Positions 5,887 to 9,227 of a stretch of 47,800 nt of DNA are shown here, one piece after another; the stretch's first letter is position 1, and every line of letters starts with the position of its first letter. This DNA comes from a virus. Its lineage: Duplodnaviria; Heunggongvirae; Uroviricota; Caudoviricetes. The stretch spans positions 1-47,800 of IMG/VR virus record IMGVR_UViG_2563366820_000002; one strand, given 5' to 3'. Under the pieces are notes generated by a model. It was not told the origin of the DNA. It was given only the letters and a program-made list of their open reading frames with translations, and made no database searches. A program made the position numbers and the translations under genes.

Positions 5887-6195
5887 TCATGATTTACTCT
5901 CCACGAACTGGTCAATAGCCATGCTAAGTGACACACCTAAAGTCTCGATATGTTGCTGAATATCCTGTAGCGTCTGCGCCTGAGATAACAGGATTTCACG
6001 GTTGCATAATTCTTTAACCAGATGCTCAAACTTGCTGTAATAACCGATACGGCTTAGTGTTTCTTTCCCTGCATTCTCGCCTTCTTTGATAATTCCTCTT
6101 TCGCTAAGAATCAGATCGTGTTTGGTTCCGGTAATAACGTATTTTCCGAGGTCGATGTTTAGCTTCATTGTTTTCATTGTTAATTCCTCAGTCAT
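5887..6195 (-). CDS. Hypothetical protein, 103 aa
   Basis: ATG at 6195 ([11 protein letters not shown]...) with AGGA RBS; the track ORF extends upstream without a credible start. Confidence 0.55.
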
Positions 6196-6484
6196 TACTG
6201 ATAGCGCCATAGCGTGAGCGGTAATTACGCAGGCGCGGGTCGATATATTCAGGGAAGTGGGTATATGTGGCTTTGCGGAATGGTCGGATTGATGTCTGGT
6301 AAATTCGCTCGCGTTCTTCTTTCTCTGCAAGCCATATACAGTGGCGAAATTCCTTTTCCTCTTTCGTTTCCTGCGGTAGAGACATTATTCGATCGTAGTT
6401 TTTTCTGAATTTATCCAGCACCTCCGATACGGAATTGCCGGAACAGCGGCGCGGGTCATCCGCACCATACAGAGGCGCTGGCAT
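6188..6484 (-). CDS. Hypothetical protein, 98 aa
   Basis: ATG at 6484 with AGGAG RBS. Confidence 0.6.
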   Translation of the reverse strand: MPAPLYGADDPRRCSGNSVSEVLDKFRKNYDRIMSLPQETKEEKEFRHCIWLAEKEERERIYQTSIRPFRKATYTHFPEYIDPRLRNYRSRYGAISND

Positions 6485-6497
6485 GATTTTCTCCTGA

Positions 6498-7004
6498 TTA
6501 AATTGCGTGAATAGCGTGACGAGGGAAGGGGAGAGTTACTGGTGCAAAGGGTATATCGTCGTCAAAATCCATCGGAGGTTCGTTGTGTTGTGCTGGTGAT
6601 GATTGCTGCTGTGGCTTCTGTGATTGCCTGCTGGCTGCTTGTTGTTTGCTGTCGCCAATGCCGCCAAGCATTTGCATCACGCCATTAATTCCGACATGAA
6701 CCTCGGTTGTGTAACGGTCTTGCCCTGACTGGTCTTTCCACTTTCTGGTTCTCAGCATTCCCTCGAAATAAATCTGATCACCTTTTTTCACATACTGCCC
6801 CACGACCTCAGCCAGTTTCCCGGATACAGCAACACGATGCCATTCAGTCAATTCCTTTTGCTCGCCAGTATTTTTATCTCGCCATTGTTCTGACGTGGCT
6901 ATTGTCAGGTTAGCGAACGCTGTTCCTGATGGTGAGTATCGAACTTCCGGGTCTTGTCCTACCCGACCAAGGATAATCACCTTATTTACGCCTCTGCTTG
7001 CCAT
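6498..7004 (-). CDS. ssb: Single-stranded DNA-binding protein with a 15-residue C-terminal extension
   Basis: OB-fold N-terminus [27 protein letters not shown]... and acidic tip ...MDFDDDIPF, followed by [15 protein letters not shown] before the stop. Confidence 0.9.
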
Positions 7005-7712
7005 TTATGCCGCCTGTTTTAGTTCGTTAACTCTGATGTTCATTACCTGAACGCATTTAGCCTGCGCCTCCTCGTTGCCAGCCATTAATTGCCAGTCACG
7101 CTGATAACGCTCGATGAGTTTTTTCTTGTCAGTTTCTGTTGACGCATAATCGCTGAAGTCTTTCAGGATTTGTTCGCAGTCAACCGATGGAGATTTCTGG
7201 TTGGTATTTTCTGGTGATGGTTTGTTATCTGATGCTGGGATTGCCCATCCCGGCAGCGATGGAGGGAGCCAGTAAAATCCTGTTCCATCCTTCAGTTTTG
7301 CCCTGTGCCACCCCTGCTTTTTATCGAGAGATGTTTGTGCGAAACCTTCCTCAAGGTTATACAGATACCGACCGATTCCCCACTGAACGGCAGCACGCTT
7401 CATTGCACCTGAACGACCACCTTTGACGGCTTCTACCTGCGTGTTTTCAGCAGCATCCCATTTGGTTACCCATTCGGAATCAATCTTGATTGATATGCCG
7501 CATTCAACTCCGCCGTTGTTGGGAATATCGCGGTATTCATTGCGCCATCCTGCTTTGCCGCAAACATCGTCCAGGCGTTTCATGATTGCCCGGTTCGTGA
7601 CATAAGCCAGCACCATAGCCCACACTTTTCCATCGCGTGTTTTACCGCTTTGCTGTATTCGCCATTCGATATCTTCAGGGCTGAATGGCTCATCGAATTT
7701 ATTCAAATCCAT
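7005..7712 (-). CDS. Single-strand annealing protein (Rad52/Sak-like recombinase)
   Basis: 235 aa, ATG at 7712 with GAGGTG RBS; sits directly upstream of ssb in the slot lambda uses for bet/exo. Confidence 0.6.
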   Translation of the reverse strand: MDLNKFDEPFSPEDIEWRIQQSGKTRDGKVWAMVLAYVTNRAIMKRLDDVCGKAGWRNEYRDIPNNGGVECGISIKIDSEWVTKWDAAENTQVEAVKGGRSGAMKRAAVQWGIGRYLYNLEEGFAQTSLDKKQGWHRAKLKDGTGFYWLPPSLPGWAIPASDNKPSPENTNQKSPSVDCEQILKDFSDYASTETDKKKLIERYQRDWQLMAGNEEAQAKCVQVMNIRVNELKQAA

Positions 7713-8258: not shown

Positions 8259-9227
8259 TTAGTAGGTTATTTTTGTTGCGAATACTTCGCCTTTTACGAT
8301 GGCTGTTATGATATTTTTAGCAACATCTTCTGATGCGCCAACCTTGATAAGGTCAGCAAGTATTTTGTTATTTACTTCTTTCCGGTGAGCTTTATCCTTT
8401 GCTCTACGCTCTTCTTCGTCCTTGATTCTTTTTTCTTCTGCTATTCTGGCTTGCTCTTTTGCTTCAGCCTCGCGCCGGATTCGTTCAGCCTCCTCCTGTG
8501 CTTTTCGGCGTTCTGCTTCAATTGCCGCATGCTTTTCTCTTTCAGCTCGTTCTGCTGCCTCTTTTGCTTCGCGCTGTGCTCGTTGCTCGGCTTCAATGCG
8601 TTCACGCTCTGCACGTTCCGCTGCGGCCTTAGCTTCTGCTTCTCGCCTTGCTGCTGCTTCAATTTCGGCTTTTGCCTTTGCTTCGGCTTCTGCTCTGGCT
8701 TTCTCTTCAGCTTCTCTTTTTAAGCGTTCTTCATGCTCTCGCTTTTCCTGCTCCGCTTTGAGTCTTGCCTCTTCTCTTTGGCGGTCAAATTCGCGATCCA
8801 TCAAAATCGCTATTTCATGGTCAGACTCAATTTGCTTTGCGAGAGCTTCAGCTGCTGCCTTAGCTTCTTCTTCGGCTTTAATCCGCGCCTGTTCTTCCTC
8901 ATAATCAGTAAGAGGCTGGCGCGCCTTGGCTTTCAGTTCATCAAGGCGATCACGCACTGTCTTGCGGTTGGCATCAATTAGCTTTGGAATTTCCTTCAGT
9001 TCAGCAACAAGGTCTTTGCCAAGACCATCGAGATATGTTTTCGTCTGCGCAACTTTATACGCCAGAGAAGCGATCTCCTTTCTGCCCTTTGCCGTTGTGA
9101 TATCAGGCACAAAGGACATAACTTCACGTTCAACCTTTTGAAGGATTTCTTCAATCTGGTCGGCAGACTGAAATACAGTCATTGCATTTGCTTTTTCAAT
9201 AACAACTAAATCTGTTACTTCACTCAT
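8259..9227 (-). CDS. Hypothetical protein with long Glu/Ala/Lys/Arg-rich predicted coiled-coil, 322 aa
   Basis: ATG at 9227 with AAGGAGG RBS; globular N- and C-terminal parts flank ~130 residues of EAKAKAE/RREAE repeats. Confidence 0.75.
   Translation of the reverse strand: MSEVTDLVVIEKANAMTVFQSADQIEEILQKVEREVMSFVPDITTAKGRKEIASLAYKVAQTKTYLDGLGKDLVAELKEIPKLIDANRKTVRDRLDELKAKARQPLTDYEEEQARIKAEEEAKAAAEALAKQIESDHEIAILMDREFDRQREEARLKAEQEKREHEERLKREAEEKARAEAEAKAKAEIEAAARREAEAKAAAERAERERIEAEQRAQREAKEAAERAEREKHAAIEAERRKAQEEAERIRREAEAKEQARIAEEKRIKDEEERRAKDKAHRKEVNNKILADLIKVGASEDVAKNIITAIVKGEVFATKITY

What the first reader, a model, noticed from the sequence alone, without database searches (positions are those of the whole stretch)
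6498..6545. SSB homologue whose acidic C-terminal tip is capped by 15 extra residues
The prophage SSB keeps the canonical ...MDFDDDIPF motif, but translation continues for another 15 codons ([15 protein letters not shown]) before the stop. In bacterial SSBs the free C-terminal Phe of this tip is the docking element for partner proteins, so an internal tip would not be expected to bind them normally. This could be a regulatory variant, a decoy SSB or a partner-specificity switch used with the adjacent Rad52-like protein.
Basis: partly seen in the sequence, partly recalled or inferred. Interest (0 to 1): 0.5.

Follow-up and report, generated by a model that had tools for sequence, protein, structure and literature searches.

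The report
Conserved cap peptide on phage SSB tails
The 15 extra residues after the acidic tip of this prophage single-stranded-DNA-binding protein are real: they form a conserved, selected peptide motif found on many phage and mobile-element SSBs and on some unrelated phage proteins, with a function that has not been studied.

Summary
ORF 6498-7004 (-) is a bacterial-type SSB of 168 aa ending ...[24 protein letters not shown]. It is not an assembly error. The identical protein occurs in phages HK75 and mEp235, and the cap DNA occurs in 401 of 5426 complete E. coli genomes.

The cap is a conserved motif, A-P-[IV]-[GT]-L-[PQ]-[FY]-P-R-H-x-I-[HY]-x-I-COOH. It is under purifying selection (dN/dS about 0.08) and occurs on mobile-element SSBs across Gammaproteobacteria. 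It also follows a DDDIPF-type tip on phage proteins of three further PHROG families that have no SSB domain match.

Capped SSBs sit next to ERF, RecT, Sak4-like, Rad52-like or RdgC genes, so a Rad52-specific switch is not supported. In relatives such as Sf6, Huey and Salmonella prophages, an HNH endonuclease gene is inserted directly after the IPF codon. This frees the SSB tip and moves the cap onto the endonuclease.

Published work shows that one extra glycine abolishes binding of SSB to chi and DnaG, so canonical docking is probably blocked. The best reading is a disordered short linear motif that insulates the tip and docks a shared, probably host, partner. That partner is unknown. I found no paper describing the cap.

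The parts
6498..7004 (-). ssb gene: bacterial-type SSB of 168 aa with a capped tip
   Evidence: ORF. Pfam SSB PF00436 E=1.6e-36 over residues 6-104. TIGR00621 match ends at residue 153. AF2 model has a confident OB fold, pLDDT 77-91 over residues 11-110.
6693..6989 (-). OB-fold ssDNA-binding domain (residues 6-104)
   Evidence: Pfam match. Beta-strand-rich, confident AF2 model.
6573..6662 (-). Gln/Pro-rich disordered linker (about residues 115-144)
   Evidence: Sequence. pLDDT about 30-35.
6546..6572 (-). Acidic tip MDFDDDIPF (residues 145-153), here internal rather than C-terminal
   Evidence: Identical to the tip of E. coli SSB in PDB chains. Tip codons show pN/pS 0.04 among capped homologues.
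6501..6545 (-). The cap: 15 codons, [15 protein letters not shown] (residues 154-168)
   Evidence: Motif conserved in 57 distinct 15-aa versions. dN/dS about 0.08 among nine Enterobacteriaceae. Disordered in AF2. The same 14-15 residues end HNH endonuclease ORFs in Sf6, Huey, IME10, N7 and Salmonella prophages.
6502..6519 (-). Tandem 9-nt direct repeat TCACGCTAT/TCACGCAAT inside the cap, encoding HAI-HAI
   Evidence: Read directly from the sequence. 8 of 9 bases identical.
6498..6500 (-). TAA stop codon of ssb
6485..6497 (-). 13-nt spacer TCAGGAGAAAATC carrying the ribosome-binding site of abc2. No endonuclease or exonuclease gene is inserted here, unlike in relatives.
   Evidence: Relatives carry a DnaQ-like exonuclease gene here (mEp235, epsilon34). 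Others carry an HNH gene between the IPF codon and the cap (Sf6, Huey).
6188..6484 (-). abc2, anti-RecBCD protein 2
   Evidence: Pfam PF11043 E=4.3e-62.
7005..7712 (-). Rad52/Rad22-type single-strand annealing protein, immediately upstream of ssb
   Evidence: Pfam PF04098 E=5e-26.

Best explanation
Shown: the 15 residues after DDDIPF are a genuine, selected C-terminal peptide motif (a 'cap'), A-P-[IV]-[GT]-L-[PQ]-[FY]-P-R-H-x-I-[HY]-x-I-COOH. It is carried by a large family of SSBs from phages, prophages and other mobile elements. It is disordered in the model, so it looks like a short linear docking motif at the end of the flexible tail.

Inferred, step 1: burying the Phe carboxylate prevents the tip from entering the standard pocket of host SSB partners such as chi, DnaG, ExoI and RecQ. 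The element's SSB would then coat recombination or replication ssDNA without recruiting, or titrating away, the host SSB interactome.

Inferred, step 2: the strongly conserved tip plus cap together form a bipartite ligand for one partner common to many hosts and elements. That partner is most likely a host protein, not the neighbouring annealing protein.

Shown: in this phage group the capped allele is the state without an endonuclease gene. Insertion of an HNH endonuclease gene directly after the IPF codon frees the SSB tip and transfers the cap to the endonuclease.
For: Real and common:
- Identical protein in HK75 and mEp235.
- Cap DNA in 401 of 5426 E. coli genomes.
- 112 of the 120 best SSB clusters are capped, although the ranking favours capped proteins because the query is capped.

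Broad distribution:
- 55 loci in species-representative genomes carry post-IPF tails. They include Enterobacterales, Vibrio, Alteromonadales, Pasteurellaceae and Pseudomonas.
- 64 of 80 viral contigs carry a 15-aa cap.

Selection on the peptide:
- dN/dS is about 0.08. For example, L015 differs from the window by 7 synonymous and 0 non-synonymous changes.
- Eight of the 15 cap positions carry 3.5 bits of information or more.

Portable:
- Tip plus cap occurs on phrog_4477 (phi92 gp156, VIK251_00040), phrog_2544 and phrog_3284 proteins, none of which has a Pfam SSB hit.
- In each case the family profile ends at IPF.

Not specific to one annealing protein: neighbours include ERF, AAA_24, RecT, Rad52-like and RdgC genes.

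Disordered: pLDDT is about 32 for residues 115-168.

Blocking of canonical docking: SSB+Gly loses chi and DnaG binding (PMC3045619, PMC3632105).

Endonuclease insertion.
Against: - No partner has been identified and nothing here measures binding.
- Phages whose SSB is uncapped by the endonuclease insertion (Sf6, Huey, ES18) are viable, so the cap is dispensable at least there.
- The tip next to the cap is itself under very strong purifying selection. That is odd if the cap simply inactivates it, and fits equally well a pro-peptide that is removed or a composite motif.
- The always non-polar C-terminus fits a degradation tag as well as a docking motif.
- The E. coli lambdoid copies are nearly identical at DNA level, so they add little independent evidence.
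Confidence: 0.5

Rival explanations
1. The cap is a C-terminal degradation or processing signal. The non-polar end (...H-A-I-COOH) would target the element's SSB to a cytoplasmic protease such as ClpXP, ClpAP, FtsH or Lon. Alternatively, the cap is a pro-peptide trimmed at F|A to unmask the tip. Either would give timed control of an otherwise toxic extra SSB.
For: - The last residue is I, L, F or V in all 57 distinct 15-aa caps, and position 14 is usually small.
- Shorter tails in other taxa also end non-polar, for example ...LLLAM...LAGA and ...LNII.
- The tip stays highly conserved, as expected if it is later exposed.
- The near-invariant A-P directly after IPF could define a processing site.
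- Established knowledge, not tested here: non-polar C-terminal residues destabilise proteins in E. coli, as with the ssrA tag LAA and the MuA tail RRKKAI.
Against: - A tag would not need the conserved internal block A-P-[IV]-G-L-[PQ]-[FY]-P, unless that block binds an adaptor.
- Virulent myophages carry the cap too, and a short-lived SSB-like protein seems less useful there.
- No protease or cleavage data exist.
Confidence: 0.2
2. The cap is a partner-specificity switch for the phage's own recombination proteins, namely the adjacent Rad52-like annealing protein or Abc2.
For: - In the window ssb lies between a Rad52-type gene and abc2.
- Other phage SSB tails do recruit their annealing protein. 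The free NDYPPF tail of the HK620 SSB is needed for Sak4 (PMC5928155).
Against: - Essentially the same cap sits next to four unrelated annealing-protein families and RdgC.
- It also occurs in phi92-like and rV5-like phages without such neighbours.
- abc2 is absent from most capped loci.
Confidence: 0.08
3. The extension is an evolutionary accident. On this view it is the leftover 3' end of an HNH endonuclease gene fused to ssb by deletion, or a DNA-level 'boundary sequence', homing site or translational-coupling element that merely happens to be translated.
For: - The same 14-15 codons end the HNH ORFs of Sf6, Huey, IME10, N7 and Salmonella prophages.
- In E. coli phages the cap DNA is 96-100% identical and forms the edge of a conserved block running into abc2, while the ssb core is mosaic.
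- In epsilon34 the cap is 48/48 identical amid 87-92% flanks.
Against: - HNH homologues 75-86% identical to Sf6 gp26 have other short tails after the conserved ...KPIYP[DE] end, and at least two of them (P0004, P0056) also sit just after ssb. The cap is therefore not native to the endonuclease.
- Capped SSBs are far more widespread and diverse than cap-bearing endonucleases.
- Synonymous changes greatly outnumber replacements.
- Downstream genes differ widely among capped loci.
Confidence: 0.05
4. Sequencing or assembly error, or read-through of a mutated stop codon specific to this genome.
For: None beyond the unusual protein end.
Against: Identical sequence in independent phage isolates and hundreds of complete genomes.
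Confidence: 0.01

Closest known systems
E. coli-type homotetrameric SSB (PF00436 / TIGR00621) with the C-terminal acidic tip DDDIPF
   Same: It has the OB-fold domain, a Gln/Pro-rich disordered linker and an exact MDFDDDIPF tip.
   Different: The tip is not at the C-terminus. Fifteen conserved residues follow it, so the Phe alpha-carboxylate that the partner pockets use is absent (PMC3045619).
Lambdoid Rec-module 'SSB-1' proteins of Sf6 and ES18 (Genome Res 2025, PMC12315714)
   Same: Same gene position between the annealing-protein gene and abc2, and 70-100% identical OB folds. That paper says these proteins have not been studied experimentally.
   Different: The Sf6 and ES18 SSBs end at a free IPF because an HNH endonuclease gene follows directly. 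In Sf6 that gene ends with the cap.
HK620 SSB (HkaK), whose last six residues NDYPPF recruit Sak4 (PMC5928155)
   Same: A phage SSB in a recombination module whose C-terminal tail mediates partner contact.
   Different: It has an unrelated fold, its tip is free at the C-terminus, and it has no cap.
Engineered SSB+Gly and other C-terminally extended E. coli SSBs
   Same: The tip is made internal by added residues, with loss of chi and DnaG binding.
   Different: Those are laboratory constructs with impaired function. Here the extension is natural, conserved and selected.
Free-standing HNH endonuclease genes inserted beside conserved phage genes (homing-endonuclease-like cassettes)
   Same: The phrog_2340 endonuclease gene always lies about 10 nt after the ssb stop codon, whatever the surrounding module. 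Degraded and deleted copies also exist.
   Different: The window lacks the cassette. Homing activity has not been shown. The authors of PMC12315714 treat such nucleases as bona fide Rec-module members.

Membership tests
Bacterial SSB family (PF00436 / TIGR00621) | N-terminal OB-fold ssDNA-binding domain | tested here: met
   PF00436 E=1.6e-36 over residues 6-104. TIGR00621 scores 166.9 bits against a cutoff of 53.95. Confident OB-fold model.
Bacterial SSB family (PF00436 / TIGR00621) | Disordered linker followed by the acidic tip D-D-D-I-P-F | tested here: met
   MDFDDDIPF at residues 145-153. pLDDT below 50 from residue 115.
Bacterial SSB family (PF00436 / TIGR00621) | Tip at the extreme C-terminus, so that the Phe has a free alpha-carboxylate for partner pockets | tested here: not met
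   Fifteen residues follow the Phe. The TIGR00621 profile ends at residue 153 of 168.
Capped-tip SSBs of mobile elements (grouping defined here) | IPF followed by A/S-P-[IVL]-[GT]-L-[PQ]-[FY]-P-x-H-x-I-[HY]-x-[IL]-COOH | tested here: met
   The window cap [15 protein letters not shown] matches the majority residue at 12 of 15 positions and the next most frequent residue at positions 3 (V), 4 (T) and 13 (H). The same cap is the commonest version in viral contigs.
Capped-tip SSBs of mobile elements (grouping defined here) | Located in a mobile element, usually in a recombination module | tested here: met
   Lambdoid prophage early-left operon, Rad52-like gene - ssb - abc2. Relatives are phages HK75, mEp235 and epsilon34.
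ssb alleles interrupted by an HNH endonuclease gene (Sf6 / Huey type) | Stop codon directly after IPF, then an endonuclease ORF of about 155-160 codons whose end is the cap | tested here: not met
   In the window the Ala codon and the cap follow IPF directly, and abc2 starts 13 nt after the stop. Compare Huey and Sf6.
Beta-clamp-binding motif (QL[SD]LF / QLxLxL) | Gln followed by the L-x-L-F/L pattern near a terminus | tested here: not met
   By inspection, the cap consensus has no Gln in the E. coli version. The Q-Y-P-x-x pattern of other versions does not fit the motif, as recalled from the literature.
C-terminal degradation tags (ssrA-like LAA, MuA-like RRKKAI) | Non-polar last residues recognised by ClpX, ClpA or FtsH | tested here: inconclusive
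   The C-terminus is always non-polar, with a small residue often before it. The resemblance is generic only, and degradation cannot be tested with these tools.
Partner peptide specific to a Rad52-type annealing protein | Co-occurrence of the cap with a Rad52-type neighbour | tested here: not met
   Among 44 upstream neighbours, 7 are ERF, 7 AAA_24, 2 RecT, 2 Rad52-like and 2 RdgC. Three more RecT genes lie downstream.

The most novel reading that the evidence does not exclude
Tip plus cap ([10 protein letters not shown]-x-G-L-[QP]-[YF]-P-x-H-x-I-[HY]-x-I) is a previously unrecognised, portable C-terminal short linear motif. Phage, prophage and ICE ssDNA-binding proteins of at least four unrelated PHROG families would use it to engage, or to evade and out-compete, one conserved host factor. 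That would be a second 'tail code' beside the classical SSB C-terminal tip.
Probability: 0.4. Interest if true: 0.8.

Novelty: new variant of a known kind. Interest (0 to 1): 0.6.

Why it matters
The free C-terminal tip of SSB is the hub through which more than a dozen replication, repair and recombination enzymes are recruited. A natural, widespread and selected modification that internalises the tip on mobile-element SSBs implies a way to uncouple or redirect that hub during phage growth, prophage induction or element transfer. About 5% of complete E. coli genomes carry such a gene, estimated from the cap DNA in 7.4% of genomes and 41 of 60 sampled sites lying in ssb.

It also gives a ready-made experiment. 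Capped alleles and alleles uncapped by an endonuclease insertion exist in otherwise near-identical phages. For example, HK75 or the window can be compared with Huey, whose ssb DNA is 99-100% identical over the OB fold and linker.

The motif could matter for recombineering systems that co-express phage SSBs, and for annotation. It is currently invisible, because these proteins are all labelled plain 'single-stranded DNA-binding protein'.

Tried and rejected
- **Assembly error:** rejected.
- **Cap native to the HNH endonuclease, fused to ssb by deletion:** rejected. Close HNH homologues have other tails, and capped SSBs are older and more diverse.
- **DNA-level conservation as the main signal:** only epsilon34 shows the cap clearly more conserved than its flanks. 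In the other E. coli phages the cap is part of a generally conserved block. I therefore rest the case on protein-level selection.
- **Docking of the cap on the OB fold:** the AF2 monomer gives no confident structure for residues 115-168, so there is no support.
- **Profile search of the 50%-identity representative library with the 33-aa tip+cap profile:** only 35 hits, many of them fragments. It was of little use as a census but useful for finding other scaffolds.
- **Solved structures:** no PDB chain contains the cap.
- **Literature:** four of the five full-text searches addressed the cap, by sequence string or by SSB-extension terms, and none found a description of it. The fifth, on plasmid SSBs, gave only background. 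Subscription-only papers are not covered.
- **Conjugative-plasmid SSBs:** most align only up to the tip, so they appear canonical.
- **Clamp-binding motif and metal-binding HxxH ideas:** considered by inspection and dropped, because Q and the second H are not conserved.
- **Rfam and tRNA scans of the window:** nothing found.

Full report
**1. The observation**

The minus-strand ORF at window 6498..7004 encodes a 168-aa protein that ends ...[28 protein letters not shown], followed by TAA. The Phe codon of IPF lies at 6546-6548. The 15 extra codons lie at 6501-6545 and the stop at 6498-6500, so the coordinates in the finding are exact.

The protein is a bacterial-type SSB. Pfam PF00436 matches with E=1.6e-36 over residues 6-104. 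The NCBIfam ssb model TIGR00621 aligns to its last profile position at residue 153, the Phe, so residues 154-168 lie outside the family model. The upstream gene (7005-7712) is a Rad52/Rad22-type annealing protein. The downstream gene (6188-6484) is the anti-RecBCD protein Abc2. This is the recombination module of a lambdoid prophage.

**2. Not an artefact**

- The identical 168-aa protein is encoded by phages HK75 and mEp235.
- Salmonella phage epsilon34 has 87-89% DNA identity across ssb and still carries the identical cap.
- The 45-nt cap DNA is found in 24 phage records at 99% identity or more, and in 401 of 5426 complete E. coli genomes.
- In an evenly spaced sample of 60 of those E. coli sites, 41 lie in an annotated ssb gene. 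The other 19 lie at the end of an endonuclease ORF described in section 5.

**3. The cap is a conserved, selected peptide**

- A search of 5.8 billion proteins with the window SSB returned 120 best clusters, from Escherichia, Salmonella, Klebsiella, Citrobacter, Enterobacter, Kluyvera, Pluralibacter and Phytobacter. Of these, 112 have residues after the tip, with recognisable variation such as [45 protein letters not shown] and SPVGLQYGKHRVYAL. The ranking favours capped proteins because the query is capped.
- A scan of one genome per species for FDDDIPF[AS] gave 55 loci with post-tip tails of 9-17 residues. They came from many Enterobacterales, Vibrio, Oceanisphaera, Pseudoalteromonas, Glaciecola, Colwellia, Pasteurellaceae, Pseudomonas and Azoarcus.
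- In 80 viral contigs, 64 carry a 15-residue cap.
- Across 57 distinct 15-residue caps the motif is A-P-[IV]-[GT]-L-[PQ]-[FY]-P-R-H-x-I-[HY]-x-I-COOH. Eight positions carry 3.5 bits or more, and the last residue is always non-polar.
- Among nine Enterobacteriaceae versions, synonymous differences dominate. L015 differs from the window by 7 synonymous and 0 non-synonymous changes, and L019 by 9 and 1. The pooled dN/dS is about 0.08.
- The adjacent nine tip codons are even more constrained, with pN/pS 0.04.

**4. The cap is a portable module and is not tied to one annealing protein**

Genes next to capped ssb genes include the following:

| Neighbour family | Count |
|---|---|
| ERF | 7 |
| AAA_24 / Sak4-like | 7 |
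| RecT | 2 upstream, 3 downstream |
| Rad52-like | 2 |
| RdgC | 2 upstream, 1 downstream |
| YqaJ | 3 |

A tblastn of tip+cap against phage genomes also hit large virulent myophages:

| Phage protein | Length | C-terminal end |
|---|---|---|
| phi92 gp156 | 315 aa | ...[23 protein letters not shown] |
| ECO340P2_00108 | 310 aa | ...[23 protein letters not shown] |
| Klebsiella phage VIK251_00040 | 406 aa | ...[23 protein letters not shown] |

phi92 gp156 and VIK251_00040 belong to phrog_4477 (unknown function) and have no Pfam hit. ECO340P2_00108 was not scanned, but its sequence closely resembles phi92 gp156. Further tip+cap carriers fall in phrog_2544 and phrog_3284 and also lack Pfam SSB hits. 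In each of these families the profile ends at IPF and the cap lies beyond it.

The cap is therefore an optional add-on to tip-bearing phage proteins of at least four PHROG families. This argues that its partner is shared across very different phages, most simply a host protein.

**5. The endonuclease insertion**

In Sf6, IME10, N7, CurroJimenez and Huey the SSB ends at a free tip (...MNFDD(S)DIPF* or ...MNFDDEIPF*). An HNH endonuclease gene of about 155-160 codons (phrog_2340) starts 9-15 nt later. That ORF ends ...[22 protein letters not shown], using the very same 45 nt as the window. In Salmonella prophages it ends ...[17 protein letters not shown], with four synonymous differences in one copy.

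Huey is the closest comparison. Its ssb DNA is 99-100% identical to the window over the OB fold and linker, and it diverges only in the last nine tip codons. The Sf6 record itself notes 14 residues shared with an 'E. coli SSB'.

The cap is not native to the endonuclease:
- Homologues 75-86% identical have other short tails after the conserved ...KPIYP[DE] end.
- The two whose context I checked (P0004 and P0056) lie immediately after an uncapped ssb, beside ERF, AAA_24 or Rad52-type genes.

Related observations:
- ES18 has a different HNH gene at the same place.
- phiKp_30 has an internally deleted copy.
- Two Enterobacteriaceae loci have an uncapped ssb followed by only a 12-nt remnant of the endonuclease 3' end.
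- mEp235 and epsilon34 keep the capped ssb and instead carry a DnaQ-like exonuclease gene inserted exactly after the stop codon.

The simplest history is that the capped allele is the endonuclease-free state. A mobile endonuclease cassette inserts right after the IPF codon, uncapping SSB and in some lineages capturing the cap. The cassette can later decay.

Two caveats apply. Homing has not been demonstrated, and a recent survey treats these nucleases as regular module members (PMC12315714). Most endonuclease-bearing examples were also found through the cap or the endonuclease itself, so the sampling is biased.

**6. DNA-level conservation**

In E. coli lambdoid phages the cap, the 13-nt spacer and abc2 form a 96-100% identical block. 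The ssb core between this block and the annealing-protein gene exists as two allele types about 70% identical. Only epsilon34 shows the cap (48/48) clearly better conserved than both flanks (87-92%). I therefore treat DNA-level conservation as a local overlay from recombination at a module boundary, not as the main signal.

**7. Structure**

AlphaFold2 with a 58-sequence alignment gives a confident OB fold. pLDDT is about 30-35 for residues 115-168, with no secondary structure. The cap behaves as a short linear motif on a disordered tail. No solved structure contains it.

**8. How it probably works**

Established experiments show that adding a single glycine after Phe177 of E. coli SSB abolishes detectable binding to chi and to DnaG and slows growth. 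This is because the Phe and its carboxylate must enter a closed pocket (PMC3045619, PMC3632105). The same paper describes the pockets of ExoI and RecQ as similar.

By inference, the capped SSB cannot use the standard docking mode. It would coat ssDNA without recruiting host nucleases and helicases, and without sequestering them from host SSB.

The cap is far more conserved than a mere blocker needs to be. The tip beside it is also still under strong selection, and the pair travels together between scaffolds. This points to tip+cap acting as one bipartite ligand for a common partner.

I commit to that reading (insulation plus redirection to a shared, probably host, factor) at about 0.5. The main rival is a C-terminal degradation or processing signal, at about 0.2. 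It is suggested by the invariably non-polar end and the near-invariant Ala-Pro after IPF. The Rad52-specific switch (about 0.08), an evolutionary accident or DNA-only element (about 0.05) and sequencing error (about 0.01) are unlikely.

**9. Comparison with what is known**

The protein is a member of the bacterial SSB family by domain, linker and tip. It fails the defining feature that the tip be C-terminal.

Lambdoid 'SSB-1' proteins are stated not to have been studied experimentally (PMC12315714). The studied HK620 SSB is unrelated and uses a free tail (PMC5928155). Four full-text searches aimed at the cap, by sequence string or by SSB-extension terms, found no description of it.

I rate it a new variant of a known kind. 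It is ordinary as a gene, common in genomes and currently annotated as plain SSB. Its conserved, portable tail motif appears undescribed, and nature already provides capped and uncapped versions for testing.

Noticed in passing
Window 6485-6545 (junctions on either side of the cap); loci L002, L003, L004, L005, L006, L078: The ssb-abc2 interval is a hot spot for inserted nuclease genes in relatives. A phrog_2340 HNH gene sits directly after the IPF codon in Sf6, Huey, IME10 and N7. A different HNH gene (gp47) occupies the same place in ES18. A DnaQ-like 3'-5' exonuclease gene sits exactly after the stop codon in mEp235 and epsilon34. CurroJimenez has both an HNH gene and the exonuclease gene. 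The window has none.
   Followed up: yes
L074:658-1605 (phi92 gp156), L075:367-1587 (VIK251_00040), L076:670-1602; proteins P0213, P0215, P0227, P0228, P0232: Proteins of unknown function (phrog_4477, phrog_2544, phrog_3284; no Pfam hit) end with a DDDIPF-type tip plus a cap such as APIGLQYGRNFLHCF. They come from virulent myophages and metagenomes. They may be unrecognised ssDNA-binding proteins.
   Followed up: partly
Proteins P0011 and P0014 (E. coli, annotated as SSB): These are chimeric proteins in which the N-terminal part of the SSB OB fold runs directly into the C-terminal half of the HNH endonuclease and its cap (...TTEVIVGNFLRDGKLIRPP...[14 protein letters not shown]). They look like deletions fusing ssb to the inserted endonuclease gene.
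   Followed up: no
L073:1577-2044: A second endonuclease gene (Pfam HNH_3) lies between the Rad52-type gene and ssb in a metagenomic relative. Both ends of ssb can therefore carry inserted endonuclease genes.
   Followed up: no
L077 (NZ_CP141750.1, 47,948 bp, circular): A record deposited as 'plasmid unnamed4' of E. coli 2023CK-01482 is a complete lambdoid phage genome with integrase, lysis, head and tail genes. Its ssb region is 99.9% identical to the window. The chromosome of the same strain also has a 99.9% match, so this is probably an excised or replicating prophage assembled as a plasmid.
   Followed up: partly
Window 6502-6519 (-): The last six cap residues (HAI-HAI) are encoded by a tandem 9-nt direct repeat, TCACGCTAT/TCACGCAAT. 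This suggests that part of the cap arose by a small duplication.
   Followed up: no
Window 8259-9227 (-): A 322-aa ORF in the early-left operon has a long, extremely charged Glu/Ala/Lys/Arg-rich central region. A 322-aa ORF at the equivalent operon position in the related record L077 is annotated 'cell envelope biogenesis protein TolA'. Its function in the phage is unclear.
   Followed up: no
L079:2460-2540 and L082:2460-2540: After an uncapped ssb stop codon lies a 12-nt remnant (CCTGATTTAACC) that matches the 3' end of the Cronobacter-type HNH gene. A hairpin-like sequence follows. This is consistent with loss of the endonuclease gene leaving SSB permanently uncapped.
   Followed up: partly
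Whole window: No tRNA genes and no Rfam family matches at gathering thresholds were found in the 47.8-kb window.
   Followed up: yes
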